A stretch of DNA of 64,000 nt from Trichoplax sp. H2 (lineage: Eukaryota). A model generated the notes under the pieces. It saw only the letters and a list, made by a program, of their open reading frames with translations, was not told where the DNA came from and ran no database searches. A program made the position numbers and the translations under genes. Below are positions 144 to 62,863 of the stretch, piece by piece (the stretch's first letter is position 1; every line of letters starts with the position of its first letter). Where the stretch lies: NCBI GenBank assembly GCA_003344405.1, contig NOWV01000140.1, positions 62,001-126,000 of the forward strand, written 5' to 3'.

Positions 144-1605
144 TCAAATTGCCACTATATCGATTTTACATTCAGGTGGAATATACTTCATTTTCTTTTT
201 GTCTTGAATGAAAATTTTTCCTTGGCTGAAACAAACCAAGGCAGGATAGTTTTTTTGATGACGTGTTTTATAATTAATCAACACGAAAGAATCGTCGGAG
301 TCGACAAATTCGAAATTATAGCTGCATATGAATCTGGGGGGAATTTTCTTTTCGATGTGACGAATTTTTTCTTTTAGAGCCGTCGAGTTGTAATGGTTAG
401 GGATTGCCTTGGCGCTGTCTCTCAGTAGTAAATCCTGCAACATAACAGATAAAATGCATTATTGTCATTAGCTTCTTTCAACCTGTAAAATTCTAGTAAA
501 AAGCCATGTTAAGTACGAATATAACTATACTTGTAGATGTGAATATTCCTATCATTCAGCAAGTAAATCCTACTTAGTTTAATAATTAAGAATTTTAACA
601 TAGACTAGCCATTAATCCTCAAATCACGGATTGATAAAGTTGTCAATAGCAAGTTCATGTTCATCTCTATCACTAGTTGATTTTCTCTACCAACCATCGC
701 TATCAGAAATAAATTTACTGGCATATCTTATGCTATGCTTACCACAAATACCAAATCGTAATAATATGGATCTTGTCGCTGCTGAAGGCATAATAAATAA
801 GATGGCTTTCTATCAACCATATGCAATATCCAAATAATGCTTATAGCGCTACGTAGCATCGTGAAATGTCCTAGAATAATATGATAGGAATTTAAAAGCA
901 TAAAATCGATAAGAATCAGTCTTCTATTCGTATTGTATTGCACGATTGATATGCTCTAGCTTAGGTATTGACTGAATCATGATCAAAGAATAAACGTAAA
1001 GTATGCTAGCGTAGACTTTTCATCGAAGCAACAGTAGTTCATAATACGATTATGCAGAATCAAGTATAAAAATACAGACTGCAATCGTGGAGCACCTCTC
1101 CATATTCCCGAGCTCTAATCTTAATTTCCTGATGATACCATAATTGAAGCGCTTTTACTCATTTATGCTAGTAGAAATGATCAACTTACCAATATCGGGA
1201 TTGAGAGAAACTTGAGGTAGATTTGTATCTGATTCACCTAAATAACCAGCCCTATTTCCAATAACGAATGCTTGATCACTTTTACTTATATAGCCATCCA
1301 TACTCCGGTACGCGAATTCATTATTGCGTAGAAGATCTGTAAAGATAAATATTTCATTGATCTTACTTGGCCATTAGCCAAAACTATTCCGATTAGCGGC
1401 GCATTTATATCAATTATTGTTAATACAATTAAGCAAGCATGAGATCAAGTAAAAGGAAGTAATGTCATGGAAATAAAGGAGTAAAGTAAAAATAGATACC
1501 GTATCTTTAATTAATAACAGCCAAAATAGAGTGCTTATTATACACACAGCTTTCTATTAAAAGATTCATGAGCTACTTACGATTTTTATGAAGATGAGAA
1601 CGCAT
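144..1605 (-). CDS. Family paralog P1: putative IL-1-like beta-trefoil protein, at least 196 aa, 4 coding exons
   Basis: Exons (+ coordinates) 1581-1605 (the exon extends to an acceptor at 1645), 1190-1336 (147 bp), 743-870 (128 bp), 144-434 (291 bp). All introns are GT-AG, phases 1/1/0, frame open: MRSHLHKNH LLRNNEFAYRSMDGYISKSDQAFVIGNRAGYLGESDTNLPQVSLNPDIG HFTMLRSAISIIWILHMVDRKPSYLLCLQQRQDPYYYDLVFV DLLLRDSAK...EKKIPPRFICSYNFEF...ALVCFSQGKIFIQDKKKMKYIPPECKIDIVAI*. The start may lie further upstream. The gene model is well supported; the product call is inference. Confidence 0.85.
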
Positions 1606-5674: not shown

Positions 5675-5722
5675 TATGGCTATCGTGGAGTAATTATTTA
5701 TGGCTATCGTGGAGTAATTATT
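5675..5722. repeat. Perfect 24-bp tandem duplication
   Basis: tatggctatcgtggagtaattatt occurs twice in tandem. Confidence 0.95.
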
Positions 5723-6259: not shown

Positions 6260-7631
6260 CTAAGTATTCACCAAAAGTATTCTGCATTCAGAAAGAATGG
6301 AGTTATATACGTATTTTATTCCATCAAGCTTTATAATCATTCTACTATTAAAACAGACTGCTTTAAATTGATATTGGTTAGGTCCATGAATCCTGCAAAT
6401 ACTCTAGACCAAGATATTTGCCGATTCGGGCAAATAGTAATCGCATTCAAAGCTACAGAAGTATTTGGATTCAATTTCCTCTTCGATACGTTGTATTTTA
6501 TTACATAGTTGATTCTCGATTATATTTACGCTATGATTCAGATACAAATCCTATATAGTACAAAATGATGACATTTAATTATTAACCCTAACAAATTTTA
6601 AAATCGCTAAGTTTAGTAAAACCTCATCAAATGTTATACAAGCACAGTATATTAATTTTTGTCAAATTTTTTAGGAATTCAGCATGTGGCACGCTAGCGA
6701 AGAAATATCAACATCGCGTTGCAATCCATAATCAAATTAAGGTTTAATAAATTTCCTAGTAGCAAGCTCAGCTTTACTGTCAATCATTAATGGATTCCTA
6801 TCTAGTTAGCAAAATTATTAATAATCTTGTTATCAAAGAGAATGAAATTCTTACCTCAAATACCATCTCATAATGAAAATGATCTTGACGCTGATGGAGG
6901 CATAAAAAGAAGATGGTCGTTTCCCAACCACTTGCAATATACAAAAGAGTGTCATATTGCTAAGTATCAATATAAAATGCTCTGCAGAAAGGATATGGGA
7001 ATGATGAAGGATGAAATGGTTAGCTCTTACTCCTATTGATGAATGGCAATGACTAACTTACTTGTATCAGGCACTTGAGTTAGATTGGCATCGATTCTAC
7101 CTACGAAACCATTATTACTTCCAATATTTATCGCTTGAATAGTTCTTTGAATATATCCATCACTACCGCGATAAGCAAATATTTCTCCAATTATGTCATC
7201 TATAACATACGAGATGGAACATTAACGTATACTGTTTATTCCTGACCATAAACCCAAAAATTAGAAACCAATTTATTCAATTCCAATCCTTTCTATGCAG
7301 TCGCTGTTCTTATCAAAGTCAATTCTTGACCGATACTATATAACTGTCCATGCTAACTTACAAATTATCTGGATATCAAGTATGAACTCGCTACCATAGT
7401 GATATATTGTGCTAATGATGAGATTAAAGCGGGAGAGAAAAAAGATCGAACAAAAAATAATTTAAGTCCTCCTACAGAGATGAAGCAGTAAAGGAGCAAG
7501 GTAATAAAGAATAAATATTAAAGATCGATTTTAAGCTGATCAAGTGCTCATTGAAAAGATTAAAGAGCAACTTACTATTCCTAACAGTATCATATTCTCC
7601 ATTATGCCAAGGATATACAGTAATTTTCTTA
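6260..7631 (-). pseudogene. Paralog P2 pseudogene (sister of P1)
   Basis: Exons 7576-7631, 7062-7199 (138 bp, DIIGEIFAYRGSDGYIQRTIQAINIGSNNGFVG...), 6855-6981 and 6260-6550. The 6855-6981 exon is 127 bp versus 128 in P1 (1-bp deletion near 6904-6912, frameshift before the conserved Cys). The 6260-6550 exon is 291 bp as in P1 but has an in-frame TAG at 6404-6406. Confidence 0.85.
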
Positions 7632-9798: not shown

Positions 9799-12700
9799 TT
9801 AATTATCGTACTTTGTGACAGGTAAGATTGAAAAGATGCAGTCTCGTGGAATGTAGTCACTAGGTCTTTTGAATAAAGTTGCAGTACCTTGCGCAAAGAA
9901 GAAAATGGTATCATTCGGGTGATAATCGCCATCAACAAGTTGGAATGCCATTTGCGGCTCCCCCATAAAAGGCTTAAGCATGAGCATAGAAAATTTCCAG
10001 ATGACATCATAGCTTGTTAATGTCTTTATCCTATCCACTATTCGTGTGATTATATCTCTAGTATCGTCTTCTTCTATGGCAGGAACACTCTAAATATGTG
10101 AAGAAGATTTAGCTAATACTATCAACTGCCTATTTGTAAGTACTAATGAGACTGAAAATATCCATCGCACACAAGTACAAAAGATAAAAATGAAGCCAAA
10201 CTGTAAGCTTGGATAGAAATGAGTGGCTTCAATACCTGTACTTAACAAGACAATACAAAATAATTTGGATAGAAATAATAAGATAATAATTGATTTAAAT
10301 TAGCCCTTAGTAAATAACTTTTAGGGTTAAGTGTAATCATGCGTAGACCAGGGAAAAAGGGAATAGGGTAAAATAATGTCTTAAATCATGGTGTTATATT
10401 AATAAAATTAGTATTAGGATTTATGATTATTTTTTCTCGTTCTTGTATGGACGACTATTTACTCTTTCGAATTCGAATACTACCGGTAAAGAAAAATATT
10501 GTGTGTATTGAGCTAAATTTGGAAAATATTGTAAGCCGTGATAACATATTATGCAGAAAACAGTTCTATTCTAATGATGCTCAAATCTTAATAGAATGGA
10601 CTTCACTATTTCATATAACTTTTTCGACAGGGAAACACTCTTTAATGTATAATTGGCATTCCTTTTGACGAGAGTACAGGTTCGGAAAGTTAAGAATTAT
10701 GAGTATGTTCGTAAAATGCTATGCTGATAAAAATTATAATCTACAATGGTATTACAATTTCTTATAATTTTTCTGTACGAAAGAATTCGGTATTACACCA
10801 GAATCAATCTGATCGGGACTGGAAAGTTTTAAAGAATAAAGAAGCCTTTATGATGACGGTTAATTTTTAGAATTCTCTCTCAAGATTTTCTTATTTTAAT
10901 AAGTACTATAGCTTTAAAAATAACTTAATTTGGTTTAATTATAGTAGGTTTAACTTAATATCGTAACACATTGTTAACCTGACTACTTTATTCAGGTTAG
11001 AGCGTAAGAATATTCTGTAGCATAATTTTGATAAGAGTATCACGATGTTAGATTGTAATTTATGTGATATAATTAGTTAGTATAATACTCCTGCTTTAAT
11101 TATGATAAAAACTAGTAGCCAATTTTGATTACAAAGTGCAGTAGAGATAATGTTACTTCGTTATTGAATACTGTGTAAACCCAAATATTTCGATCTGGGT
11201 TCTAATTTAAGATTGTTAGTGAGCCTTAGTCTTTTTTGTATATGTCTTAGACCGTAGGGAAGTAAAATTTGTAGATTTAGTAATTTTGAGAATCTAGGGT
11301 ACAATTTATCTGATCATATGTGTTTAATGGCTAATTTTATTTAAAATAATTTAGAATAATAATTTGATAGCCTAATGCCACCAACTGCCCTAAATTCGTG
11401 AGTAAATTGTATTTTTCGTTGATAGTTTGACTTGTTAAGGCAGCAATTCTGCCCTTATTGTAATTTTTAATTGGTTTTTATAAGTTGTTTGCTAAATTTA
11501 TAAATTATTGGTGGTTTCTCCTAATTTTCCTTGAGTTAGAATTAAAAATTTGTTAGATTTACTTGAACTTTTGCGTCCATTCTTACTCTTAGATGAAACT
11601 ACTATTTAACTCTGAAAAAGAATGAAATCTTATAAAGCAACTCAAGTACAGTACATTTAATTGCAAGTAGCTTATCGATAGGGGAAAGTTCATTGCAACA
11701 AAAATGATACAGTATGTTATAAAGTGTAAAATCACAGAATATTTAAAATAATCTTGCTAACTGCGCTACAGTCTCGTATTAAAAGTGATTATTACAATTA
11801 TTTATGCAGATTAATGTTTGAATGTAATACTCATTCTTACGTAATTTATTGCAAGATCATGTATAAAAGACTGGAAATTACTTGCATTCTTATAGAATAT
11901 TTATCATTTATTTCTTTAACTTACTAAGTAGGCAACTTCGTAGTTTTTGCTTCTATGGTGTCGAACTAAGCACAATACAGCTTCTGGTCTATTCTTAGTT
12001 ATAGAAAGAAAAGCAGTTTTCTCTTCATCCATAGGTCGCATTTCAAGATGTACTAGAAATGGAAGGAAGTAACTTTAATAATTTCAAAAATATCGGAAAT
12101 AAGGAATACCGTAATCTACAATTCTTTAAACATAAGCCTGTCGTAAATTTATCTAATAATACACTATCATTTTCCCTACATTAAATTCTTATACATGATA
12201 AAATTATAAGATCAAACATTATTCATAGCTGGATAGGAAGGAATTATCTATAATTCTAAAAACTTTAAGTCTGTCATAACTATCTTATATTAAATTTTCC
12301 TGCGGTATGTTCATTTTCGTTATAAATTATGTCATCGTACGTTAATGCCTGGATGAGACGAATTATTTTTAATTTTATCACTTTTAAGCTCTTAGTGTGT
12401 AGTGGTTTTACGAATACAAGCCTTATATTAAATTAATAATGACAGAAGCAAATGCGAGATCAAATATTAGTGTTAAATTAACTTGCAGTAAAGTTAGTTT
12501 TTACCGCATGGCATAAAATGGCAAGATACTGCTGCTTACAACTCTACAAATTCATTAGCTTAAAATCCTTTTTTTTACTAAGTGTTGTTTAGGATTTTAT
12601 TCATTTATTTAGAAACAAATTATTATGATATATATTTAGCTCGTAATAATTGCACTTGACGGTATGCTAGCCTGCCATTTGCCAAACATCATGGCTGAAG

Positions 12701-13674
12701 TAGTAAATCGAATACCCGTGATCGGTATCAGTAGTGAAGTACTACGGCTCATAACTCTGCAACTTCGTTACCTTATAATTATTATTTTGACTTTATGTTA
12801 ACTTGTAAGAAAGTTAACGGTTATCTTATGTAAGAAATGGTGAAAAGCTACTGTTTACAAGTCTTTAAATTTACTAGTCTATAAATATTATTCTGATTAT
12901 AGGTTAACTTGTAGTAAAATTAATGGTTATGTCATAGAATAATGAAATGCTGCTGTCTAGATTATCTTAATGATGGATAACAGTTTTTATAAATGGAAAG
13001 GCTGCATCGCTAATAGAATATTAGTTCCATATAGCATAAAATCAAAATAATTTGCTTGCAGATAACTAGTTAAAAAGCTATACCATCGCTAAGGTATATA
13101 TATATGTTACGGCGTAACATATATACTCCTTAGCTGTAACTGGCATAGTTTAAGTTATAATGACATAGATATTGGGTAGAATACCAACATCGAAAAGAAA
13201 GCTTAATCATACCAGCTTCAGGATCCAATTTATCTATTATGCTTGAAAAAACGGCTTCAAAACCAATACTGGATCCATATGGTATAATTTCTGTACTGCG
13301 AATCAAATATTGATCATTCCACAGTAACATAACTGTTCGGGCACTAGATGCCTCAGAAACTTTCGCATGTTCATCTGCTAAAAGCCGAAATCAGAAGATG
13401 AATCTTAACAATTCCATCTTAGAATCGAAAGTATCTATAAGTAATTTCATTACTGCCATGGATACGGGTAATAATACTAGTGTAAATTTCGTCATATAAC
13501 TAATTGAATTTCCCATCTAACTAGCCAATTTATATTTTTAAGACAACAAAATTAGTGTTTGGAATTTGAGTTCTATCTCACTAATCCTACTCGAATATAG
13601 ATTTTTTAAGCATAAATTGCTGGTTGGAAAATTTTGTAACAGTTCCTAGTAAGTCTCGTCAATTTACCCGACAT
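9799..13674 (-). CDS. Family paralog P3: putative IL-1-like beta-trefoil protein, 196 aa
   Basis: Coding exons 13668-13674 (ATG TCG G), 13213-13377 (165 bp), 11925-12052 (128 bp), 9799-10089 (291 bp); GT-AG, phases 1/1/0. MSADEHAKVSEASSARTVMLLWNDQYLIRSTEIIPYGSSIGFEAVFSSIIDKLDPEAV HLEMRPMDEEKTAFLSITKNRPEAVLCLVRHHRSKNYEVAYL SVPAIEEDDTRDIITRIVDRIKTLTSYDVIWKFSMLML...YIPRDCIFSILPVTKYDN*. Confidence 0.88.
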
Positions 13675-18177: not shown

Positions 18178-20296
18178 TTACTTTACAGCTGGTAAGATCG
18201 AAAAGATGCTGTCTCGTGGAATGTAGTTTCTAGGTCTTTTGAACAAAGCTGCAGTCCCATGAGCAAAGAAGAAAATGGTATCATTAGGGTAATAAGCGCG
18301 ATCAACGACTTGAAATGCCATTTGCTGTTCTCCCATATAGGGCTCAAGCATGAGCATGGAAAATTTCCAAATGACATCATGGTCTGTCAGTGACTTTATC
18401 GCATCCTCCATTCGTGTGCTTATGTCTCTGGTATCGTCTTCTTCAATGATTGGAACACTCTAAATAGACGAAAGAGAATTGAGCGGATATTAGCAGCAAG
18501 CTATTTTTAATCCTAAAGACTCTAAAAATACTCAATACGTCAATTTTTGGCATGATAAAATTTAATATGACATTGTGAATTAGTCCGATTAAGAATAGGG
18601 TATCGAAAGATTTTAAAGTATAAATAATGTAGCTAAAATTATTATTTTAGTATGGTAATGACTTGGATTTCATAAAGTATGGGCATTACAACTTTACGTA
18701 GCTTGCAAACAGCTGGAAATCATAATTATTTAATTAATCCAATAGAATGAAGGTATAAAGTTATGAAACTTCGAAATAATCTAGCTAATAGTCCAAAAAA
18801 TTATATTTCCGCAATGAACTTTGCGATTTTAAGCAAGTTTACATGTATAAAAATCTTCATTCTCACGTAAGTAATGTGTCATCTAGGAAATAATTAGAAA
18901 TTTATTGGATTCCAATAAAACTCTATCAGCTATTTTTGAATCTTACTAGGAATATAACTTCATAATTTTTGCTTTTGTGGTGTCGAATTAAGCACAGTGC
19001 AGCCTCTGGCCTATTCTTAGTTAGAGAGAGGAAAGCGACTTTTTCTTTATCCATGGGTCGCATTTGGAAATGAACTAGAAAGGAAAATTTTGTTCATTCG
19101 CAATATATGAAAATAAGAGATTTATCTACGATTATACAAAACATAGGCCTGTCACAATTACATCTAATGCTTGGAAATTCCAGTAGTATGACTACTTTCA
19201 TGATACAATTTTACGATTGAATATTAATGTCAAGATAAATAGGAATTATTTAATTTTCTTTAATATTGATTAAGCTTATAGAGTGCAGTTACCAGAAAAA
19301 AGCATTTTAATCATACCAATAATCGCGATAAAAATTGTATTATCGAATCTAGTGCCCATAAAGATAGGAATGAGCTACAATGTGACAGTTATAGAATGTT
19401 ATCATTACACTTGACGATATAATAGGCAGTAGTTTGGTAATAATCATGGTAAAAACTGCAAGATTAAGTGGCAGGGGCTTTAAAAATTACTCGGGTAGTA
19501 ATTATTTACAACTTTCCAATTTTAGCTTGCAACTATTCTGCTTGACGATAGGTTAGCATGTAGCAGAATTAATGGTTGAGGTAAAAATGAATAGAAAACC
19601 GCTGCTTAAATTTTTCTAATTACACCAACGGCAATCACTAATGGTAAGGTTGAAATATTGATGTAATATTAATTCCACTTAGTATTAAATAAAAAATTAC
19701 TATTTAGAGATAACTAGTTCAAAAAGATTATAGCGTTCTTGAAAGATGTCATACCCTTTAATAGCAACTATCAAAGTCTCAATCATCACGTAAAGATGAT
19801 GAATGAGTAGCAACATCTAAATAGAGCTAAATCATACCAGCTTCAGGATCCACTTTCTCTAAAATACTAGAAAATGTGACTTCAAAACCAGCATTGGATC
19901 CATAATTCGACATTTGTCTGGTACGATTCACGTATTGATCGTTCCTTAGCAGCATAACTGTTCGGCTAGCAGCTGCTTCAGAAGCTTTCGAACTTTTATC
20001 TCCTATAAGTCAAGATTAAATTAATCAATTTTGACAGCTATAACATAGAATTGAAGGTATTTATAGTGCAATTTTATTGCAGTCATGGAGACGATTGATG
20101 GTTCTCTTGCAAATTTTTCATATAATTTAAACTGTCCATCGAACAAATCATGTATAATTGCACGATATCGAAATGAACGTTTGAATCTGAGCTTTATCTT
20201 ATTAACTCTATGCAAATATAGCGGTCTTAGGCTCAGTTTTGAAAATAAAATTTTGCAGCATATATATGGAGTAAAATCCATTAACTTACCTGACAT
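18178..20296 (-). CDS. Family paralog P4: putative IL-1-like beta-trefoil protein, 193 aa (close sister of P3)
   Basis: Coding exons 20290-20296 (ATG TCA G), 19838-20002 (165 bp), 18947-19074 (128 bp), 18178-18459 (282 bp). MSGDKSSKASEAAASRTVMLLRNDQYVNRTRQMSNYGSNAGFEVTFSSILEKVDPEAV HFQMRPMDKEKVAFLSLTKNRPEAALCLIRHHKSKNYEVIFL SVPIIEEDDTRDISTRMEDAIKSLTDHDVIWKFSMLML...SILPAVK*. Splice sites are colinear with P3. Confidence 0.88.
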
Positions 20297-22995: not shown

Positions 22996-24658
22996 TCAGT
23001 CGATATTCGGAATATTATTGTCAATAGTATCAACAAAGGTTACGGTTTTATCGAGATTGAAAACGGCAATTTGCAGTTTTGTTTTGTTAGCAGTGCCCTT
23101 AATAGGTACATATTGATAAAGAATATCCAACAGTTGCCAACGGGTTTGTGTGAAAAAGCCTGATATCTACCTTGTAAATGATATCTATATGATAATAATT
23201 GTTCAACTTTTCGGCTTCCAATTGAAAAGTATCGATAGATGAATAAAGAGAATTCAGTTTCTAAATAAAGGCATTAAATTTTAGTGAGCTTCAAACTAAT
23301 GGCGTTATTATTCTAAAGAAAAAGATCTATGTTAATATAAATGGGGAAATATCACTAGATAGGCATTAAAATATTCTTACTAGTGCTTAACATTATGGAG
23401 AACAGGCACAACGATTTGACTACAAGTACGTAACAACTTATGGCTTTCTATACTAGCTGTTAAATAGTGCTATGCATTGCAATGGCGCTCTTTCCACGTG
23501 CTATTTAATTAATCACGATTATTGGAGTATGGATGGCGGCAAATTAGAAACGAAAGTAATTTATAATTTCATGAAGAAAAGTGTTCACTTTCCATTTAAA
23601 TGTAAAATATTTACAGACTTTAAGTCTAGCATATTAGGCTCCAAAATATCATCCACTGCTAGCAAGCAAATCCATATAGAAAAGGCTTAAATTCGTATAA
23701 AATTGCATACTATCATGCAATTTAAGAGTTTTGGTAACTTCTAACAACACTTGCAACATCTTTACTAATAAATTTGTATATAAATTCAAAATGAACACTG
23801 CCAATGACATCAGAATGATTAAAATCATATTAAATTTTACGATCATGGAATAAATACTAATAGCTTATACATTAAAGATTAGGAAATAGTTATAATATGC
23901 TCTAATTCCGTTTAGTTCTACATTCCTTAGAATTCTACCTTTGAATTACATCGCTACTGGTATAATATCTAGACAAGAAGTAGAATGTTATTTCTGAGGT
24001 AAATTTATTACTTACCAATATTAAGAACTTGTAGGTATCAGTACATTTTAGTCTATTTAGACACAGTAGATACGACTTTTCAGATGAGGTCATGAAAAGT
24101 CCAAATGTACTATCGGTTAAAATTAAGCAAAAATGGGCTAAAAAAAAGAAAAAACATCGAAAGAGAGGGTATTAGTCCTAACTGAAAATTGTTTCGCTGC
24201 CAACAAATACCGATTCTGTTCTATAGATTTCTATGCAATTTGTACTTTATTGCAGTGTAGGCAGGACAATCGGATGGTATTATCTTATACGAGTATATAG
24301 CATATATTAATAATGGCATAGGCTAGACTGGACTCTTGGTTACTACTGTTCGATTTAGACTATGCGGCAAATTTATCAGAACATTAGATGTCTTAATAAG
24401 ATCGAAGTTACATGACTAAATATGTCACAATTATTACTTCTTTCACTAGGCTCTTTTTGGAGAGAAATATTTGATAGGCGGAGATGGTTACATAATTATA
24501 CTCGCTGGTGTCAAGTCATACTCTTCATCAACTCAAAGCATTATGGAGTATAAGCTTTAATAGAGTTTAGGAATTGCATCTCCTCTTGCCGCCTGTTTTA
24601 AGCTAAAAATAGCCCTGACTTCCACAACGATTAAGAGAGTAATTTCTATCTTAAGCTA
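22996..24658 (-). pseudogene. Paralog P5 pseudogene
   Basis: The middle exon 24016-24137 is intact (122 bp, phase 1-0: HFCLILTDSTFGLFMTSSEKSYLLCLNRLKCTDTYKFLIL). The last exon from the acceptor at 23260 reads KLNSLYSSIDTFQLEAEKLNNYYHIDIIYKVDIRLF and then frameshifts near 23140-23150: it stops at 23099-23101, while family-like TRWQLL...IAVFNLDKTVTFVD continues in another frame. The upstream exon (~24500-24658) carries SQGYF and SIKAYT in different frames, with stops. Confidence 0.75.
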
Positions 24659-35780: not shown

Positions 35781-36833
35781 TTATCGTACGACTAATATTA
35801 GGTCACTTTCAGCCGGCATAAAATCTATAATACGATTTACCAATCGAACTTTCCCATCAGTATCAAAGGATACTAATTTAGTTCTATTTTGTCCAATAGT
35901 TAAGTGGACTATCGTCGATCGTGAATCCAGATCATAGTATTGTAGATTGAATAACCAGATAATAGTCTCCGGATCTTTCTTATTCCATTTTTTAAATATT
36001 TTTGTAATATTCTCAATATCTCTATCTATTTCCTATAACATTCACGAATCAATGCAAATCAGAAAATGACAATAGATAGTAGCAGAAGTACTTTGCTGCT
36101 TGTACTGTATTTTAACTTCATCAATAAAATGCTGTAAACACAAGTATAGCTAGAAATGAATATTGTAGGCAAGTAGAACTTCCTACGTATACTTATTATT
36201 CAGTATTTTCATCACAAACTTACCACAAAGATTGCATCATATTTACTCTCTTCAATTTTTTTTAGGCATAGCAGAAGTTTAGGTTCAGATTGTAGAATGA
36301 TGCGTGAGTAAGTATTATCCACTAATTTAAATTCGAATTCAGCTATAATTAATTGATAATAAATGAAAGCACATATTTTAAATTGATTGTACAGTTTATA
36401 ATGATAAAATTTGAGGAATTAAATTGAATAATCGATCGATGTAAGAATCGATATTTTACCAGGAGAGGAAAGACTATTAACTTCCTCCAGTCCGTTAACA
36501 CGAGTAGAATAATATGCCTTTAAGCACCCCAGATTATATGGTTTATTGCTCCTTATTAAGTAACTGGAATTATGTCCTGTTTCAATTAGCATTTTTTTAC
36601 AAGAGCCTATTGAATCTAGAATAGGATACCAAACAGAGTTTATTAGTATCGGATTAGCGCTGTCCTATTCTCATTTCAATACGGAGACATTTAAATCTAC
36701 ACAAATACCGGTAATGTTGAGCATTACCAAACAAGAATGCACTTTTACAGCTATATATTATATAACAGGTTGATACATTTTTGTAAATTAGAAATTAGCC
36801 ATTAAACAGTTTACCAGCAGAGATAAGCTTCAT
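35781..36833 (-). CDS. Family paralog P8: putative IL-1-like beta-trefoil protein, 181 aa (sister of P7)
   Basis: Coding exons 36815-36833, 36460-36615 (156 bp), 36224-36342 (119 bp), 35781-36032 (252 bp). MKLISAD SIGSCKKMLIETGHNSSYLIRSNKPYNLGCLKAYYSTRVNGLEEVNSLSSPA EFEFKLVDNTYSRIILQSEPKLLLCLKKIEESKYDAIFV EIDRDIENITKIFKKWNKKDPETIIWLFNLQYYDLDSRSTIVHLTIGQNRTKLVSFDTDGKVRLVNRIIDFMPAESDLILVVR*. Confidence 0.88.
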
Positions 36834-37908: not shown

Positions 37909-37928
37909 NNNNNNNNNNNNNNNNNNNN
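37909..37928. other. Assembly gap (20 N)
   Basis: Run of 20 n characters. Confidence 1.
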
Positions 37929-44850: not shown

Positions 44851-46588
44851 TTAAGCCGTAGATAGAAATATTGTGCTTTCGGGAGGCAAATATTTATTAC
44901 GCTTCAAAGATTTGAGACAGACATTTCCGTTAGCTCTAAAGCAGACTATCTTCATTGAATCGTTGCGGCATACGAGCAGACGGATTGGAGTTAATCCATC
45001 ATGTCTTGATAAGTATTCGATATTAAATTTCCAAATTATAACAATACCATTTCGCTCTTCAATTTCACTGAACTTCTACAACAGTGAAGGCAAGACCTCG
45101 TGTATATCCTATATGACGACAGTGGAGTCAAAATAAACCACTTTACTTCTAAGCAATCTACGTATATATATATATACATTGATTACAAAGTATTCCATAT
45201 TGTAGAAACGTCTAATTAATCATTTCTCATCTACAAATTACTACGTAAATCCATCGATATTCGTTTTTCTTGTGACTCACTTTCCTTAAGCAAAGCAGCT
45301 GTGTAGGGACCAATTTTGAATTTACTGCTTCAATGCAATGGCTGATATTATCGTCGATACTTTTAGACGTGAATCGTACTATAAATTGAAACGGCAAATT
45401 TTTTTGAAAATTTAGGCAACGACTAATCAGCAATAATTTTAGCTTTCTACTGAAGTGCATTAGAGACCGATAGAATTTGCGGTGTGGTATACAATAGTCT
45501 ACGTAGACATGCATTGATAAAATTAGAATATCAATAAATTAAATGCATGATGTGCTAGTGTGAGATAAATGTTTCTTCATATATTTATTATGATAATGTG
45601 AATAAAGTAAGTGAATATTATAATATTAAGCAATGTAGTACATTCTGGACACTTGCGCTTCCATAAATCTCGAAAAGCTAAAATTACTAAAAGTTTTAAA
45701 GTGGAGTATGTTACAATCCACCTAAGGGATAAATATTTCGCTGAAATACTATAACTGCCTCTTAATTAAACAAGAATAAAACGTTCAATCTGAGATAGTT
45801 ACCAGTAGTTGTTTCTTCACCGTATTTATATATTCCCGCAAATGTGCAACCATGAGCTGTCAGTGATCCAAGATCATGCATATAGTAATTATCACACCAT
45901 GTCAAGTAACTTCTTAACCGTTGACTGTAAATGTAACAGCCGCAGAAGTCTGATGTAGATGATCTATCAAGTGTATCTCTATTACACATTAAGCTTGTTT
46001 ATTGAACAGATTTTGCAGACTTCTGGCTTCTAAAGTGATACTTTTTAATGAATTTTAAGCTAATAAGAAGCAGACAGCAGAAGGTAACGACACCTAGCGA
46101 AGTTTCTGAGGTTCTGATAAGAGTACCTACGTTGGAAACGAATAATAATGATGATTTAGCAACTAACAAATGAAAAAATTATCTCTTCAATAATTAGAGG
46201 AAAAACCAAAATGAAAAACGATTACAGGTAAGTCTTTATTATCGATTACTTTACACAGTTACTTTGACGTAAGGTAAGCATTAAAACTACGTGGTATTAA
46301 TTAAAATCTAATTCTAGCAAGCAATCTGTTATCGCATCAGCAGAAATTTTAACCTTAACATCTATTTAAAGCTATTTCATGTAAGCTACACAGCTGTATA
46401 CTAGAAAGGGTAATATATGCTACGAAGTCAATAAGCAATGGACTTAATCTGAATACAATTTAATTTAATTTAAAAATATGTTAATAAACTCTATAAATTG
46501 AGAAATAGCAGTTGATCAATGCTACTTTACCTTGGCTGATCGTATCATTACTATTCGTTAACACGTCAAGAATTCGATATGCAGACAT
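44851..46588 (-). CDS. Family paralog P9: Cys-rich member with an in-frame TAG in the last exon (pseudogene or splice-rescued)
   Basis: Exons 46531-46588 (MSAYRILDVLTNSNDTISQ, tentative), 45803-45949 (147 bp, acceptor tentative; DFCGCYIYSQRLRSYLTWCDNYYMHDLGSLTAHGCTFAGIYKYGEETTT), 45242-45378 (137 bp; VRFTSKSIDDNISHCIEAVNSKLVPTQLLCLRKVSHKKNEYRWIYV), 44851-45108 (DIHEVLPSLL*KFSEIEERNGIVIIWKFNIEYLSRHDGLTPIRLLVCRNDSMKIVCFRANGNVCLKSLKRNKYLPPESTIFLSTA*). The TAG is at 45076-45078. Confidence 0.7.
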
Positions 46589-48416
46589 TTAACTACTTTA
46601 GCCTCGATGAAGTTCAGTTTTCGTATAAGAGAGGAAAAAGCTATTGGTTTAAGTGAGCTTGGAAAAAGACTGCACTGCAGTAGCGGTTGCCAGACTAAGA
46701 TTGAGATTAAGCACTCAGATTAGTTATCTTGATCTATTAACAAGACGGGGAAACATAGAGGTTTGAATGAACTAGGACAAAGATTTACACTGTAATAGAG
46801 CTTACTAGACTAAAGATAAACCTACAGCGATCATCATTCATTTATACTCTACTACCACTTTAATCCGTTATAGTTATGCTAATTAATCAATCAACATAAT
46901 TTGCATAGTTTGACAACTTTGATGGATGAGTCATAACGGAAATTAAGAGAAAATCTAGCTAAGAGAATTTTTTCTAGTCACACAGCCTGATGTGAGTTCA
47001 CGATCTTTTGGATGCCTGTTTAAGGCGTCCTCAGTTTTGAATTTTGATTGCTAGCTCAAGTTATGGCAAGCTGTTAGAAGACTATGATGCTGAGATACAT
47101 GCAGTACAGTTACTTTCGTTAGGAAAACTTTGGCGAAAGTCTGCAACTTAACTCTTCAAACAGACATAGGATTACTATATATGTACATGCAGAAGGTCTA
47201 TAATAACGAACGTTTGCATTCAATTTGCATAATTTATATTAAATAATAAAATATTAATCAGTAAGCGTTGAAGTATCAGTACCTCTGTCTTCGTGCTAGA
47301 TCAAGAACTTTGATGACCCAATGGACATAAAGTAAAAGTATAGCTTTAGTATGGGAAAGAAGAGGTTAAATAAACAAAATTATGGAGAAAATTTGCATAT
47401 AGTGTCATATAATGCGAGTCCAAACTATCAGATATCCTGATGGGCCTAATGTCTCAGTATGAGAAGAAATATTTCAATATCAGCCTGATCACTCCAAGAA
47501 AAGATAAGTAGGAAAATCTTGGCAATCAGGTCTTTGAGGTAACTTTTTCGCCTAATCCTGAAATATTGATGTAGTGCAGCCCAAATATAGCTTAAGATTA
47601 TATATACACTTATACAGTATGTGTGAATATCGTGCATGACGTAATTACTAGGCTAATTAAGATAGATACGCTTGTATAGGTGCTAGATCGTAGAGTGAGA
47701 TTAAATATGTGAGGATTTGTATTAGTAATTGCAATACGGATTGTAAAAGTTATTAGTCATACTGTTTGGCACCTCCAGGTACGCTAGAGGTGTGATGTTA
47801 GCCTTATTAAGGTAGATAACGATTTATGTGTCACGAAGATACTCTGTACACAATTGTATATAAGCAGGAGATTTTATCTCCGAAGACAGAGTAGCCATAG
47901 ATAATCTAGTCCTTGGTAGAAGACGTAATTATTGTAATAAAGTGATTTTCCTTCAAGTTGTGGAAGTCGTTGCGTTTCGATAGACACTTTATTACAACTA
48001 ACCATCTCACTGTAGTGATTTTCGTTGCAGATACTTAAGCTAGAAAAATACGTAACGAAATCTAACTTACATACTACTTCAAGCCAGCATGTGATAAGTG
48101 AGCTGGATTTTACGTAGGAAAATAGAATCACGTTTTTAAAGATATCCACGATAAATTATCGATTCATAGACCAAATTTGTTACGGTATAAAGTAAAATTA
48201 AAGTTCAGCTATGTGAAATGAATATTTAATGTTTTGGAAAATACATTATCATAAATTAAGGTTACTCACTCCTTTATAAAATATTTGAATCGAAAGTAAA
48301 TAAACTGTACGTGCGTGAATGATGTGATATTAGTTATACAATAAGCTCTTCAATACCAGATAACATATCCTTACAACAAGAGAATTTAAAGTACTATCAT
48401 GCCACTTTTGCGGAAG

Positions 48417-50897: not shown

Positions 50898-52492
50898 TTA
50901 AATCTTGACCATTCTTATACTGCTTTCAACTGGCATGAAACCCAAATTTTCATTAATTAATAGAACTTTCCCATCAGTATAAAAGCATAGCAACTTTTTA
51001 CCATCACTTATATTAACTAACAATTGGACTTCGGTCGATTCACAATATGGGTGATTTGGGCTATATGGCTCAGAGGAATATATAATAAATTCCCAAAGAA
51101 TAGAATCTTTGTTTTCTCTATTCCATTTCTTAAAGGTTTCTATAACGGTCTTTATATCGTCATTCAGTTTCTGTAAACCACCAATTAATCATTTTAGATC
51201 ATAAAATGGCCGTGTAAACGACTAAAAGTTCATATGTTGATCAATGGCACTTATTCGAGAGATATTATTACATAGCTAGCAGACTACTACTAAAATCATA
51301 ACATAAAATATATTTTCGATATACAGAACCATAGAATGATATTTTGCTATGTTATAATAAGCAGCGTAATAGCTCCAAAAATTTGATTCCATTTACTATA
51401 TATTTGCAGAATATGATTATAAACCTATTAACCGTCTTTTATATTAAATTTAATCTTCCGTAGAAATAATAGTAACAATATATTTACGTACTGTAATAAT
51501 GAACAGTTGCAGAAAAATTTGACTCCCATAACACAAAATTGAGCCATTTTTTCGTCTAAATCATTTAGCAAAGGTCTTGTAGCGTCTCTAACTATAACTT
51601 GATGATTATTGTAAGACAATAAATAATCGTATTTATTCACTGATATCGCCATAGTATCTTGTCTTAGTAAGTAAAATACTGCAGATATACCTAACTACTC
51701 GGTAGATTATTTTCGTTGTAAACTTACCACAAAGATCAACTCATATTCAGATTTATTTATTTTCTTCATGCACATCATCAATTTGGGATCAGAAGTTAGA
51801 ATAACCACAGAGTTAGCTATGTCCTCAGATTTGAATATAAATTGAGCTATGGTTTGATTGATAAATTGGAAATTGATCAGGCTCTGCGTAATAAGAAACT
51901 GTTTCAATTCAATTATTAATCTATAGCTGTTAGGAATAGTATTTACCGCAGCTGGGCTTTTCCTCAAGTTCATCCAATCCTTTAGCATATTTAGCAGTAT
52001 ACGCTGTAAGATGCTTGAAATTAAATTCGTGGTCGCTTTGCGCTAAGTAATAACCCAGCGAATTAAGATATACTTTTGTTTGGGTGCTGGCAAATTCTGA
52101 AACGATATTTTTATCATATCAAGCCACATGTTGCTTAATCAGCCATTATATTGCAACTGAAATGCACTGAATTCATAAATTCATAATTATATATGTAAGA
52201 TTTTTCCTAAAAAGTGTAGTATTCAATCTGCCTTCATTTTATAAAAAGTGCAATTTGAAATGCTGTTGATCATTGTTGACAAGGTATGTTAAATAATACG
52301 ATTCATCTATATATTTTTAAAGAAATTGAAGGTTACTTGATTAAAATCAGCAGCAGTAAGAGCAATTTACTATTAATTTAGCCAAATTAGTTACGATTTG
52401 CCAAATTAGCTTATCTTTAGAAAATAATGGATCAACTTTTTTGGGGTACAAACTAAATAGTAAACCAATTTACCTTTAGAAAAATTTTCCAT
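50898..52492 (-). CDS. Family paralog P10: putative IL-1-like beta-trefoil protein, 186 aa
   Basis: Coding exons 52474-52492, 51947-52096 (150 bp), 51728-51846 (119 bp), 50898-51170 (273 bp). MENFSKE FASTQTKVYLNSLGYYLAQSDHEFNFKHLTAYTAKYAKGLDELEEKPSCA QFIFKSEDIANSVVILTSDPKLMMCMKKINKSEYELIFV KLNDDIKTVIETFKKWNRENKDSILWEFIIYSSEPYSPNHPYCESTEVQLLVNISDGKKLLCFYTDGKVLLINENLGFMPVESSIRMVKI*. Confidence 0.88.
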
Positions 52493-56500: not shown

Positions 56501-58072
56501 TTAATCCTCGACCAAATACACTCTACTTTCAGGCGGAAGATGACTATATTTTAGATTGATAAATTGGACTGTTCCATCAGGATTAAAGCAAACGACCTTC
56601 TTACTGCCACTTTGTGTTTCGATAAGGTTTAATTCAGTTAATCCATCATGTGATTTGCTGTATTCGAAGATGAATTCCGTGATCAAGTTAATGCCAGTTG
56701 TTTTTTTCACTTCCTTCAATTGTTTTGAAAATGATTTCATATCTTCATTGACTTCCTGTATCATAGTAAAAAAATAGAAAGCGATCATTTAGATTATCTC
56801 ATTTATGTTATTTCAGCATGAAACTTCCATAATTGGCTTAGATATTTTTTCATTGCATTGCAATATTCTAGTCAAGTACGAAATTAAAATTTAAATTTAC
56901 ACGAGCTCTTGATTAAACTGATCTAAATATTATTTTTTATGCAATTTATCTATAGATCAATTAAAAGCATTGAGTGTTAGACTCGCGCAAATTATTTCTC
57001 TTCTTCTAACTTACCACAAAAAGCAATTCATATTTGTTGCCCTTTATTTCTTTTAAACCAAGTACACGTTTGTTATCAGATAATAAGACAAGAGCCCAAT
57101 AGGAATTGTCGTATTCTTCAATTTCAAATTTAGCTGTAAATTGAAAGGACAAAATTTCTGCTTAGTATTTATATGAAATATGTGTAACTTCCGTCCCAAT
57201 TTGATTAAAAGTCGAATCTAAAGTACAGTAGAATGATCAATTTCAGATATTTACCAAATTCAGCCTGTCCATCAATGCCATCTAATCCGTCTATCAGATT
57301 AGATTTGTACACAACGAATGGCCCAAGAGTATCCTTTTCACTTTTACTTATTACGTAGCCGCCGATTGATCTCACCAAGAATTTTTTCGGAGTAACACTG
57401 AATCTCTGTACAGCATTGGTATAACCTAAAATTAAAACATTCTTCGTATTAATAACTTATTGCTTTTGAAGTCTACTCTGTTCTCTATTTTTCTTCATCA
57501 TTTGATAATGCTACCAATAAGATTAAAAGTTCTTACTCTTGCGAACGATCTTAAAAAAGAGCCTGGAAAATTCAATTATGTTTGCGACAATTGTAGCAAA
57601 ATAATGATGATAATTCTTCCGTTCTGCGTAGAAAAGAAATGGATACTTTAAGAACGAGTTATACAAAGCTATGGCTAATGAGACAACACAAAATTAAAGG
57701 AAGATCAGTTAAATTTCATGATATAGATTGGGACTCATCTTGATTAAATAAAATTGTACTGCTTCCGCTATTTCTGTTTATCTAGTAATATCGTACAGTT
57801 AAAGCAATCTAAATTTTACTATATTTTTGTAAATATATTAATTTAATTGATTTCTCGTTTAAAACAATTGAAAAGTTTACGCGTATATTGCATATTTAGT
57901 AATTCACTAGAGACATTTAAACACGCAGAAAAAGTATATTTGTCTTCTTCTGTTTTAGACTATCTGAATAGAAGGATAGTTAATTATTATTCAGTCGTAG
58001 GAGTTAGCTTAAAATTATTAATAATACCTGATATATTATGGATTTACCTTGCAGTACTTGTACGTGGCCCAT
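56501..58072 (-). CDS. Family paralog P11: putative IL-1-like beta-trefoil protein, 189 aa
   Basis: Coding exons 58048-58072 (MGHVQVLQG), 57255-57425 (171 bp; YTNAVQRFSVTPKKFLVRSIGGYVISKSEKDTLGPFVVYKSNLIDGLDGIDGQAEF), 57015-57133 (119 bp; AKFEIEEYDNSYWALVLLSDNKRVLGLKEIKGNKYELLFV), 56501-56755 (255 bp; EVNEDMKSFSKQLKEVKKTTGINLITEFIFEYSKSHDGLTELNLIETQSGSKKVVCFNPDGTVQFINLKYSHLPPESRVYLVED*). Confidence 0.85.
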
Positions 58073-61244: not shown

Positions 61245-62863
61245 TTAAACTGCAGCTAAATTCAATACGCATTGAGTTGCAATTTGACTAACAACAAAAT
61301 CTGATAAATGAGCAGTTGCGTTCTGATCGAAATATACCGAATTTCGAGATGTATGCTGTGATGTATCGCCAACTGTAGAACCATTCACTAATAAGCAAAC
61401 TTTAGTAAAATCAGAATTCGGGCTTGGCGTATATAGCTGGAATAAGCAAATAATATTCATATTAATTTTTTTAATTTCTTTTTCTAAAGCGTCTTTACTT
61501 AGAAATGGAGGTAATTCCTATAAAGAAGCAAAGACGAAAATTTAGATTTAGTATACCAAGAAAAGAAATTTTATTACATGATTTTATAGTTAATATAGTA
61601 TAGATTTTTTAACAATCGTTATCTCTTATATTGATTAATCAAATTTTGCTAGACCTCTTTCTTTTCTCAATTATGATTTAATATTATGGGCAATTTTAAT
61701 AAGACACACGAACAATAATAGAACAGTATTCGTACATTCTGTCGTTTAACCCAGCCAACCTGTCTTGTAACTTTCAAATAATTATCATTTCTCTACTAAT
61801 GCTAGTTTTTGTACTAATATTTTAGGTATTACCATTCCTGTACTGTCTTAGAGACAAGGCTTTTATCAAGTCGTATAACTTTCTTTAGCCGGTCAGAACT
61901 ACGACTATAACTACTATTGATGATGATAGCTTCTCCTTATACCAAATAGCAATGTTCTTCTAATTTTTGTAGTACTGTTAGTAAAATTACTATTCTGGTT
62001 CTTAATTTAGTTTTATTATACACAAAGCATGCTCATATCTCTCATAAAATTAATAATTTTTTATTTAATATGGCTATCGCCACATTGAAGATTCCTTATT
62101 AAAAATAAATGTATCGCCATAGAATTGAACGTCGGTTTTATTTTTACGATCAGTAAGGTATTATTTTTAACACAAATAGTAGAAAATAATTTAAAAATAT
62201 ATTATGTTAAAAAACATTATCAGAACTTACTGTAAAGATAATATTAAAATCATCTTTTCCTTTACGCTCAAGGCCAAAGACTGCTCTTCGATCAGATCCC
62301 AAAGTAATATAGCTATAAGTATTATCTATGTCCCAAACCTGGTAACGAGCTGATGATTGGAATTTGTAAAGTAAATAATCCTTTCAATATTAAGATTTTG
62401 AATTTGCATTCATACAGTGTATGATTTCCATCTAGATATAACGCCTGTAATTACCGTATCTCTATCTGTTTTACTATATCGCCTTTAGATCACCATAAAC
62501 TGAAAGTGAAGATTTAAGAGATTTGATTATTCTATCAACAGTTCTTACTTTCCGCTAAATTTTGATCCACTTCATCGAAGGATTTGGTATAAATCGCACT
62601 ATAAATAATGTACCCATGATCAACGTGAGTATTGCTAGTGCAAGCTATAAATTGACCGGAATTTTCTAATGCGATTCCTTCATATTTAGGAGTCCCTAGA
62701 ATAATTCACATGGTAGAAGCAAAACATATGATATCCACGTTAATAAAGTTTGATTATGACAATGGAGCAGTTATTAATGGCTATAGCAAAATAAAAATTA
62801 AATTATACGTTGATTAGGTACAGCAGCCGCTTCGCCTTTGGCTGAATGCCAAATTGAAAACAT
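61245..62863 (-). CDS. Family paralog P12: divergent putative IL-1-like beta-trefoil protein, ~197 aa
   Basis: Exons 62809-62863 (MFSIWHSAKGEAAAVPNQ, tentative, weak GTATAA donor), 62549-62695 (147 bp; TPKYEGIALENSGQFIACTSNTHVDHGYIIYSAIYTKSFDEVDQNLAE), 62231-62349 (119 bp; RYQVWDIDNTYSYITLGSDRRAVFGLERKGKDDFNIIFT), 61245-61517 (273 bp; ELPPFLSKDALEKEIKKINMNIICLFQLY...SVYFDQNATAHLSDFVVSQIATQCVLNLAAV*). Same 1/1/0 phases as the other paralogs. Confidence 0.8.

What the first reader, a model, noticed from the sequence alone, without database searches (positions are those of the whole stretch)
144..62863. Tandem cluster of ~12 leaderless genes with interleukin-1-family (beta-trefoil) architecture in an apparently invertebrate genome
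Seen in sequence: 12 same-strand paralogs fill the whole window, and the well-preserved ones share intron phases 1/1/0. Core exons are 138-171, 119-137 and 252-294 bp, and the products are 181-197 aa. Established (from memory): the last three coding exons of human IL1B are 165/131/213 bp with phases 1/1/0, and IL-1 family genes sit in a tandem cluster. Motifs fall in the corresponding exons. P8 PYNLGCLKAYY parallels IL-1b GPYELKALHL. The exon-start x-[EQKH]-F-x-[FM] parallels VVFSMSF. YLLCL followed by a Y-[DE]-x-I-F-V exon end parallels LYLSC...PTLQLE. P7 WLFYRSY...RSTIVQL parallels IL-36-type FLFYR...TSTLES, and P1 EKKIPPRF parallels KKKMEKRF. Inference: a lineage-specific expansion of IL-1-like cytokines/alarmins, too diverged for BLAST and invisible to ORF callers. 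Caveats: the vertebrate F-E-S-x-x-x-P-x-W signature is absent, and FGFs (also beta-trefoil) share the 1/0 intron pair.
Basis: partly seen in the sequence, partly recalled or inferred. Interest (0 to 1): 0.95.

Follow-up and report, generated by a model that had tools for sequence, protein, structure and literature searches.

The report
Placozoan leaderless beta-trefoil gene cluster
A tandem cluster of Trichoplax genes encodes an undescribed family of small beta-trefoil proteins without signal peptides whose exon layout resembles that of IL-1 and FGF cytokine genes, but nothing yet shows that they are interleukin-1s.

Summary
The window comes from Trichoplax sp. H2 (Placozoa) and is filled by 12 minus-strand paralogous loci. 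Nine look intact and three are decayed. The intact genes have a short first coding exon and three core exons, with intron phases 1/1/0. Contigs from three public studies carry exactly the predicted splice joints for three genes. AlphaFold2 with a paralog alignment gives confident 12-strand beta-trefoils for two paralogs (pLDDT 88, pTM 0.84-0.85), and every strong structural match is a beta-trefoil. The two introns inside the domain lie just before strand 4 (phase 1) and at the end of strand 7 (phase 0). As I recall, both IL-1 and FGF genes have this arrangement. IL-1 membership is not shown. There is no Pfam, PDB or profile hit to IL-1 or FGF, and the (F/L)ES motif of strand 9 is absent. There is no PDZ domain. 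IL-18, IL-33 and IL-1alpha score no better than lectins, FGFs and designed trefoils. A published survey found no transmembrane TIR receptor in this species. A profile search of 1.84 billion proteins found the family only in placozoans. My best reading is a lineage-specific, transcribed family of leaderless trefoils, possibly an offshoot of the FGF/IL-1 stock, with unknown partner.

The parts
144..1605 (-). G1, intact paralog. E2 1336-1190 (147 nt), E3 870-743 (128), E4 434-144 (291 with stop). Candidate E1 1605-1581 is unverified.
   Evidence: HMM hits to all three core exons; canonical splice sites and phases; E1 candidate. No public protein was retrieved for it.
6263..7221 (-). G2, decayed copy. 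E2 7199-7062 (138 nt). E3 ends at 6855 and has no phase-1 acceptor in frame. E4 is split over two frames (6407-6550 and 6263-6403).
9799..13674 (-). G3 = TrispH2_008886 (P0002, 196 aa). E1 coding 13674-13668 (7 nt), E2 13377-13213 (165), E3 12052-11925 (128), E4 10089-9799 (291).
   Evidence: Protein mapping; splice sites; name.
18178..20296 (-). G4, counterpart of T. adhaerens TRIADDRAFT_61700 (P0003, 193 aa, one residue different). E1 coding 20296-20290 (7 nt), E2 20002-19838 (165), E3 19074-18947 (128), E4 18459-18178 (282).
   Evidence: Mapping; sequence. All three introns appear as joints in contigs of runs X4 and X7, and one also in X9.
22999..24171 (-). G5, remnant. E3 24137-24016 (122 nt) has good splice sites. 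Only a faint E4-like trace is left at 22999-23166.
29168..30611 (-). G6 = TrispH2_008888, identical to T. adhaerens B3SBQ7 (P0005, 195 aa). E1 coding 30611-30593 (19 nt), E2 30383-30234 (150), E3 30117-29993 (125), E4 29461-29168 (294).
   Evidence: All three introns appear as joints in X4, X7 and X9. AF2 model m1656180232db has pLDDT 87.8.
35781..36833 (-). G7 = TrispH2_008889 (P0001, 167 aa as annotated). My model is 181 aa: E1 coding 36833-36815 (19 nt), E2 36615-36460 (156), E3 36342-36224 (119), E4 36032-35781 (252).
   Evidence: Joints 36615/36815 (X4, X9) and 36031/36223 (X4) are. AF2 model m8210b39fec49 has pLDDT 88.1.
44851..45949 (-). G8, divergent and apparently intact, with no public gene model. 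E2 45949-45803 (147, tentative), E3 45378-45242 (137), E4 45075-44851 (225).
   Evidence: HMM E4 hit 1.4e-21 and E3 hit 0.012; splice candidates.
47877..48155 (-). E3-like fragment ending in a stop straight after the LLCL-type motif; a decayed copy.
   Evidence: not found by the HMM at E up to 5.
50898..52492 (-). G9 = TrispH2_008890 (P0013, 186 aa). E1 coding 52492-52474 (19 nt), E2 52096-51947 (150), E3 51846-51728 (119), E4 51170-50898 (273).
56501..57425 (-). G10 = TrispH2_008891 (P0015). E2 57425-57255 (171), E3 57133-57015 (119), E4 56755-56501 (255). The public model adds two upstream exons (58072-58049 and 57624-57535) that I could not verify.
61245..62695 (-). G11 = TrispH2_008892 (P0004, 191 aa). 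E2 about 62695-62549 (147), E3 62349-62231 (119), E4 61517-61245 (273). The exon for the first 13 residues was not located.

Best explanation
The window is a tandem array, in the placozoan Trichoplax sp. H2, of a placozoan-restricted gene family.

Shown: Each intact gene has a very short first coding exon and three core exons. It encodes a soluble protein of about 181-196 aa with no signal peptide. The protein folds as a single 12-strand beta-trefoil with helical inserts in the three symmetry-related loops b3-b4, b7-b8 and b11-b12. The genes are transcribed, spliced as modelled, and under purifying selection.

Inferred: The two introns inside the domain lie just before strand 4 (phase 1) and at the end of strand 7 (phase 0). 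The central exon therefore encodes strands 4-7, the layout I recall for both FGF and IL-1 genes. The family is thus most likely a lineage-specific, fast-diverging offshoot of the same leaderless 'cytokine-type' trefoil stock, and not a ricin-type lectin.

Inferred mechanism: The protein is a cytosolic binding module. It acts inside the cell, or after release without a signal peptide or on cell damage. Paralog diversification tunes its partner specificity. The conserved acidic motif in the b3-b4 loop and the P-x-[EDQ]-[SCT] motif in the b11-b12 loop are candidate parts of the binding or processing surface. The partner is unknown. A classical Ig-TIR IL-1 receptor is not known in this animal.
For: Identity and organism.

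Family and gene models.

Splicing: canonical joints at the predicted boundaries for G4, G6 and G7 in contigs of 3 studies.

Constraint: dN/dS is 0.31 for G3 versus G4 over 191 codons.

No leader: the highest 10-residue hydropathy in the N-termini of supported models is 1.3.

Fold:
- AF2 gives pLDDT 87.8 and pTM 0.84, and pLDDT 88.1 and pTM 0.85, with 12 DSSP strands in both models.
- Searches give the same picture.

Strand map: in P0001 the tight hairpins are 10-21/24-33, 66-75/78-86 and 136-140/145-150. Intron 2 (codon 45) then lies 2 residues before strand 4 (47-51). Intron 3 (84|85) lies at the end of strand 7 (78-86).

Literature:
- The ancestral Fgf gene had two conserved core introns (PMC11733497, passages).

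Not lectin-like in sequence: one QxW motif in 1 of 15 rows.

Distribution: the profile search of 1.84 billion representatives gave 11 hits at E up to 1e-3. Eight are Trichoplax proteins, two are unnamed ENA fragments, and one is a skate hemicentin-like protein matched on a 30-residue repeat.
Against: - The IL-1 and FGF side of the intron comparison rests on recalled exon sizes and strand positions. No IL-1 or FGF sequence or coordinate set could be obtained. No residue-level structural alignment was available.
- There is no sequence or profile similarity to any known trefoil family.
- Structure does not separate the superfamilies. FGF1 (12.3), IL-18 (12.0), HA33 (12.6), Bombyx 30K proteins (12.7) and lectins are tied.
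- The models rest on a 15-row alignment made mostly of paralogs. Single-sequence ESM Atlas models of the same proteins are poor, with pLDDT 0.32.
- No functional, localisation or induction data exist.
- The runs used for splicing are only guessed to be RNA.
- Two matching intron positions could be coincidence in a threefold-symmetric fold.
Confidence: 0.45

Rival explanations
1. These are true IL-1 superfamily members: IL-1anc-type genes that lost the PDZ domain and expanded in placozoans. They would act as leaderless cytokines or alarmins, released on damage and perhaps processed by caspases.
For: - Leaderless trefoil.
- Tandem cluster.
- Three introns of phase 1/1/0, as I recall for the last exons of IL1B.
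- Central exon of 119-137 nt, nearer the 131 nt I recall for IL1B than the 104 nt I recall for FGFs.
- Long b3-b4, b7-b8 and b11-b12 loops with a short helix in b3-b4.
- A D-x-x-D site in the b3-b4 loop in 6 of 10 sequences, exactly DEVD in 3 of 10.
- IL-1anc was found by structure only, a subset lacks PDZ, and the authors say very divergent members may have been missed (PMC13736523, sections 6 and 7 read).
Against: - No Pfam IL1 hit at E up to 10.
- (F/L)ES in strand 9 is in 0 of 13 sequences.
- No PDZ domain.
- IL-1 proteins are never the best structural match.
- FGF shares the two core introns.
- No transmembrane TIR protein was reported in Trichoplax sp. H2 (PMC6321704, section 5).
- The acidic site lies inside the trefoil, so cutting there would break the fold, not release it.
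Confidence: 0.15
2. This is an unrelated placozoan invention on the common beta-trefoil scaffold: cytoplasmic defence or storage proteins such as a lectin-like binder, a protease inhibitor or an antifeedant. Fungi keep leaderless trefoil lectins and inhibitors in the same way. The intron match to cytokine genes would be coincidental.
For: - The highest-ranking structural matches include many lectins, toxin sugar-binding domains and fungal protease inhibitors. Examples are HA33, CNL, MOA, SSA, Cry35/Bin/Tpp N-domains, cospin and clitocypin.
- The family is lineage-restricted, tandemly expanded and fast-diverging. Exon-4 identity is 13-55%, as is usual for defence genes.
- No receptor for IL-1 or FGF is known in placozoans. 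For IL-1 this rests; for FGFR it is recalled.
Against: - No QxW repeats.
- No conserved disulfide pattern.
- Both core introns fall at the strand positions and phases I recall for FGF and IL-1 genes.
Confidence: 0.3
3. This is not a working gene family: decayed repeats or mis-assembled ORFs.
For: Three of the 12 loci are decayed.
Against: - Spliced contigs from three studies.
- dN/dS of 0.31.
- Conserved canonical splice sites in nine loci.
- Near-identical genes in T. adhaerens.
Confidence: 0.02

Closest known systems
IL-1 superfamily, including the IL-1anc proteins of cnidarians and bilaterians (Fontenla-Iglesias et al. 2026, PMC13736523)
   Same: - Leaderless 12-strand beta-trefoil.
- Two central introns of fixed phase inside the trefoil.
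- A phase-1 intron just upstream of the domain.
- Long b3-b4, b7-b8 and b11-b12 loops.
- Tandem duplication.
- Detectable only by structure.
   Different: - No Pfam IL1 match.
- No (F/L)ES in strand 9.
- No PDZ domain or pro-domain; only 6-14 residues precede strand 1.
- An 11-14-residue helix in the b7-b8 loop.
- No Ig-TIR receptor reported in the species.
- The phylum is not mentioned in the main text of either version of that paper.
FGF family, especially the leaderless FGF1/FGF2 and the intracellular FGF11-14 (FHF)
   Same: - Beta-trefoil.
- Two conserved core introns (PMC11733497), at positions and phases 1/0 that I recall as the same.
- Some members have no signal peptide.
   Different: - No Pfam FGF match.
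- The central exon is 119-137 nt, not the 104 nt I recall.
- There is an extra phase-1 intron before strand 1.
- The loops are much longer and carry helices.
- The genes form a tandem cluster.
Cytoplasmic ricin-B-like lectins and trefoil protease inhibitors of fungi (CNL, MOA, SSA, cospin, clitocypin), and toxin lectin domains (HA33, Cry35/Bin)
   Different: No QxW repeats and no sequence link. I know of no shared gene structure.
Bombyx 30K lipoproteins and ENF-binding protein
   Different: These are secreted haemolymph proteins with a separate N-terminal helical domain. There is no sequence link.

Membership tests
IL-1 superfamily (incl. IL-1anc) | 12-strand beta-trefoil fold | tested here: met
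   AF2 models have pLDDT 88 and 12 strands. All listed structural matches are trefoils.
IL-1 superfamily (incl. IL-1anc) | Sequence match to the IL-1 profile (Pfam PF00340) | tested here: not met
   No IL1 hit at E up to 10 for 10 exon peptides or 9 full proteins. No IL-1 chain appeared in the PDB sequence or profile searches. None appeared in the 1.84-billion-protein profile search.
IL-1 superfamily (incl. IL-1anc) | (F/L)ES motif in strand 9 | tested here: not met
   Present in 0 of 13 sequences that cover strand 9. The only [FL]ES in the family lies in strand 5 of P0005.
IL-1 superfamily (incl. IL-1anc) | Two central trefoil introns with conserved phase and position | tested here: inconclusive
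   On the placozoan side, phases 1 and 0 hold in 9 of 9 intact loci, before strand 4 and at the end of strand 7. The IL-1 side is recalled. The paper states conservation but gives no numbers in its text, and its figure and supplements were not visible.
IL-1superfamily (IL-1anc subtype) | N-terminal PDZ domain | tested here: not met
   No PDZ hit in any member. Transcript contigs end about 130-170 nt upstream of the start codon. The paper notes that a subset of IL-1anc lacks PDZ.
IL-1 superfamily (incl. IL-1anc) | Structurally closer to IL-1 than to other trefoils | tested here: inconclusive
IL-1 superfamily (incl. IL-1anc) | Cognate Ig-TIR receptor in the genome; linkage to IL-1R, GCC2, ESD or TRAF3 | not testable with these tools
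   No genome is held for this window. Kamm et al. 2019 report no TIR protein with a transmembrane segment in this species. The window holds nothing but the cluster.
IL-1 superfamily (incl. IL-1anc) | Induction on immune challenge, caspase processing, non-classical release | not testable with these tools
   These need experiments.
FGF family | Sequence match to the FGF profile (Pfam PF00167) | tested here: not met
   No FGF hit at E up to 10.
FGF family | Two conserved core introns (ici1, ici2) | tested here: inconclusive
   Two core introns are present in all intact loci. Equivalence to the FGF positions and phases is recalled. The conservation itself is stated in PMC11733497.
Ricin-B-type lectins | QxW repeat in each trefoil subdomain | tested here: not met
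   One QxW in 1 of 15 rows. No Ricin_B_lectin hit in Pfam.

The most novel reading that the evidence does not exclude
The cluster is the placozoan branch of the leaderless FGF/IL-1 'cytokine' trefoil lineage. It keeps the ancestral exon layout (strands 1-3 | 4-7 | 8-12, phases 1 and 0) in an animal that has neither an Ig-TIR receptor nor, as I recall, an FGF receptor. It would then show the state of these cytokines before their receptors existed: intracellular or damage-released trefoil binders. That would move the origin of the IL-1/FGF ligand stock to before the split of placozoans from cnidarians plus bilaterians.
Probability: 0.3. Interest if true: 0.85.

Novelty: new variant of a known kind. 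Interest (0 to 1): 0.62.

Why it matters
IL-1 homologues outside vertebrates were recognised only recently and only through predicted structures. In the 2026 paper they reach cnidarians, were not found in sponges or ctenophores, and placozoans are not mentioned in the text I read. This cluster is a transcribed, expanded family of leaderless trefoils in a placozoan. Its exon layout looks like that of IL-1 and FGF genes. It therefore offers a concrete test of whether the ligand scaffold is older than its receptors, and of what such proteins did first. Even if the family proves unrelated, it is a sizeable placozoan-specific family of unknown role. At least 11 intact genes exist in Trichoplax sp. 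H2. Single-sequence structure predictors and all sequence libraries used here fail to classify it.

Tried and rejected
- **Strand map.** An alternative map would make the 22-32 strand of P0005 a hairpin (b2+b3) and the 126-130 strand an extra element. The introns would then fall at trefoil-unit borders. I rejected it after the P0001 model showed three long hairpins with tight turns and exactly 12 strands.
- **Internal repeats.** A self-comparison of the family profile with hhalign found no internal repeat.
- **ESM Atlas.** No usable feature hit for P0005 or P0002, and its own models are poor.
- **Word-index protein search.** The search with P0001 found only P0001 itself.
- **PDB sequence searches.** They gave only chance-level hits: PDR16 at E 1.3 and trans-sialidase at E 0.28.
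- **IL-1 in the wide VIA search.** No IL-1 chain was among the 50 rows shown for the P0005 model. IL-1 chains did appear.
- **Foldseek with the P0001 model.** No match at E up to 1e-3.
- **Sequencing runs.** No RNA holder is listed on record. The runs I laid are only guessed to be RNA. G5 and the intergenic stretches had little or no cover.
- **Other features of the window.** Rfam and tRNA scans found nothing. Fourteen other ORFs gave no Pfam family above threshold.
- **Searches that could not run.** The whole genome is not held.
- **Literature.** Searches for the gene identifiers (0 papers) and for Trichoplax plus trefoil (11 papers, none on this family by title or abstract) found no description of the family.
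- **Gaps in the papers read.** Supplements and figures of PMC13736523 could not be seen, including the list of 39 genomes and the intron figure. They may show whether a placozoan was screened and what the IL-1 phases are.
- **Not used.** Complex prediction, because I make no binding claim.
Full report
**What the window is.** GC content is about 30% throughout. No genome is held for the window. The last exon of one gene is 100% identical to hypothetical protein TrispH2_008889 of Trichoplax sp. H2, on a 198,103-bp contig. Other exons match TrispH2_008886, 008888, 008890, 008891 and 008892, and T. adhaerens TRIADDRAFT_61700, 61702 and 61703. These proteins map exon by exon onto the minus strand. 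The window is therefore placozoan.

**Checking the observation.**
- Self-tblastn and iterated exon HMMs showed a real paralog family.
- An HMM built from 15 family rows gave 34 hits in the six-frame segments. Thirty-three are on the minus strand, and the single plus-strand hit is weak and antisense to an exon.
- The hits group into 11 loci. A truncated exon-3-like fragment at 47877-48155 makes 12.
- Nine loci have all three core exons with canonical acceptors and gtaag-type donors.
- G2 has a broken last exon. G5 keeps only exon 3. The fragment ends in a stop.
- Core exons measure 138-171, 119-137 and 225-294 nt.
- The E2/E3 intron is phase 1 and the E3/E4 intron is phase 0 in 9 of 9 intact loci.
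- The first coding exon is tiny: 19 nt in G6, G7 and G9, and 7 nt in G3 and G4. It ends in phase 1 in all five.
- Products are 181-196 aa.
However, six of the genes are already annotated as hypothetical proteins, so they are not invisible to gene callers. G8 has no gene number.
- The cluster continues beyond the window. TrispH2_008893 is a member that does not map here. One more member, TrispH2_004079, lies on another contig.

**Are they real genes?**
- No run is on record as RNA. Even so, contigs of runs from three studies laid on 17900-37800 carry joints with GT..AG ends exactly at my exon borders.
- G4 shows 18459/18947, 19074/19838 and 20001/20289.
- G6 shows 29461/29993, 30117/30234 and 30383/30593.
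- G7 shows 36031/36223 and 36615/36815.
- The last joint supports an upstream start for G7 (36833), giving 181 aa instead of the annotated 167.
- G3 versus G4, over 191 codons at 70.7% identity, gives dN 0.173, dS 0.564 and a ratio of 0.31.
- The N-termini have no hydrophobic stretch, and nowhere does a 19-residue window exceed 1.5.

**Fold.**
- Single-sequence routes fail. Pfam finds nothing relevant. PDB sequence searches find nothing. The ESM Atlas holds poor models with pLDDT 0.32.
- With a 15-row alignment of family members, AlphaFold2 gave pLDDT 87.8 and pTM 0.84 for P0005. It gave pLDDT 88.1 and pTM 0.85 for P0001.
- Both models have 12 strands plus helices.
- In Foldseek against PDB, every row I recognise among the top rows is a beta-trefoil. 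Examples are botulinum Hc and HA33, FGF12, IL-18, Bombyx lipoproteins, ThreeFoil, Symfoil, the IP3 receptor and CBM42.

**Which trefoil?** Structure cannot say.
- For the P0005 model the scores are Symfoil 12.8, Bombyx 30K proteins 12.7, HA33 12.6, FGF1 12.3, IL-18 12.0 (rmsd 3.2 A, 134 residues) and fascin 11.9.
- For the P0001 model they are Symfoil 10.5, Bin/Cry35 10.3, IL-33 9.6, IL-1alpha 9.1 and FGF10 8.5.
- Foldseek ranks IL-1beta 30th, with no match at E up to 1e-3.
- Sequence gives nothing either. A profile search of 1.84 billion representatives returned 11 proteins at E up to 1e-3. Eight are Trichoplax proteins, two are unnamed ENA fragments, and one is a skate hemicentin-like protein matched three times on a 30-residue stretch, which I take as spurious.

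**Introns on the structure.**
- In P0001 the strands are 2-5, 10-21, 24-33, 47-51, 57-61, 66-75, 78-86, 112-119, 123-130, 136-140, 145-150 and 161-165.
- Tight hairpin turns lie at 22-23, 76-77 and 141-144. Helices lie at 35-37, 90-100 and 158-160.
- The three hairpins are b2/b3, b6/b7 and b10/b11 of a trefoil. The three helices sit in the symmetry-related loops b3-b4, b7-b8 and b11-b12.
- Intron 2 splits codon 45, two residues before b4. Intron 3 lies between residues 84 and 85, at the end of b7 (mapping).
- P0005 gives the same picture: codon 57 lies before strand 58-63, and 98|99 lies at the end of strand 92-99.
- The exons therefore encode b1-b3, b4-b7 and b8-b12.
- From memory, human IL1B has last coding exons of 165, 131 and 213 nt. 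By arithmetic that gives phases 1/1/0 and a central exon that starts at b4 and ends in b7. FGF genes have a 104-nt central exon with the same borders and phases 1/0.
- The papers I read confirm only part of this. IL-1 superfamily genes, IL-1anc included, share two central trefoil introns of conserved phase (PMC13736523, section 7). The ancestral Fgf gene had two conserved core introns (PMC11733497, passages).
- The match is therefore suggestive of descent from the FGF/IL-1 stock. It is not proven here, and it does not separate IL-1 from FGF.

**IL-1 features tested.**
- The (F/L)ES motif in strand 9 is in 0 of 13 sequences.
- No PDZ domain is present.
- There is no pro-domain.
- Kamm et al. 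2019 found 16 TIR proteins in Trichoplax sp. H2 but none with a transmembrane segment (PMC6321704, section 5).
- Fontenla-Iglesias et al. 2026 found IL-1anc from cnidarians to vertebrates and none in sponges or ctenophores. The words placozoa and Trichoplax do not occur in the main text of either the journal or the preprint version. I could not see their supplements.

**Conserved features of the family**.
- An acidic site in the b3-b4 loop just before intron 2 reads D-x-x-D in 6 of 10 sequences, and exactly DEVD in 3 of 10.
- The b11-b12 loop carries P-x-[EDQ]-[SCT] in 12 of 13 sequences.
- Strand 8 is I-I-W-x-F-like.
- QxW lectin repeats are lacking.

**Conclusion.** The shown part is a transcribed, constrained, placozoan-only tandem family of leaderless single-domain beta-trefoils. 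The inferred part is that their exon layout points to the FGF/IL-1 type of trefoil gene. On that reading they act as cytosolic or unconventionally released binding proteins with an unknown partner. Calling them interleukin-1s is not warranted: two defining features that I could test fail, and the rest are inconclusive or untestable here.

Noticed in passing
window 25186-25602: A stretch of about 415 bp has very high summed contig depth in all four runs (103-490). Many different loose ends occur at both borders (25186/25190 and 25600-25604). It therefore sits in many different transcripts or copies and is probably a dispersed repeat. No Rfam family matches it.
   Followed up: partly
window 36815-36833 and P0001: The public model of TrispH2_008889 starts at an internal Met (167 aa). 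Contigs of two runs join 36615 to 36815, which supports a 19-nt upstream coding exon and a 181-aa product.
   Followed up: yes
window 57535-58072 (P0015, P0010): The public models of TrispH2_008891 and TRIADDRAFT_61703 add 38 N-terminal residues from two upstream exons. These include the only mildly hydrophobic N-terminal stretch in the family. I could not check them against transcripts, and they may be a mis-annotation.
   Followed up: no
P0005 residues 47-52 and aligned columns in the family: A caspase-type acidic tetrapeptide sits in a short helix of the b3-b4 loop, directly before intron 2. It reads D-x-x-D in 6 of 10 sequences and DEVD in 3 of 10. It is inside the fold, so cleavage there would split the trefoil.
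   Followed up: partly
window 18056-18144 and 20386-20541: Run X9 shows two further joints. One is an 87-nt skip with GT..AG ends just downstream of the G4 stop codon, possibly a 3'UTR intron. The other is a 154-nt skip with non-canonical ends upstream of the G4 start.
   Followed up: no
P0009 (skate hemicentin-2-like, 1554 aa): This was the only non-placozoan named hit of the profile search (E 9e-8). It comes from three short matches of profile positions 63-92 to repeated domains. It looks like a motif coincidence, not homology.
   Followed up: no
window 37909-37928: A run of 20 N marks an assembly gap between G7 and G8.
   Followed up: no
P0005, P0002 (ESM Atlas records): Single-sequence language-model structures of these proteins are near-random (pLDDT 0.32). 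A 15-row alignment of paralogs is enough for AlphaFold2 to reach pLDDT 88. Lineage-specific paralog clusters may be a general way to rescue such orphan families.
   Followed up: partly
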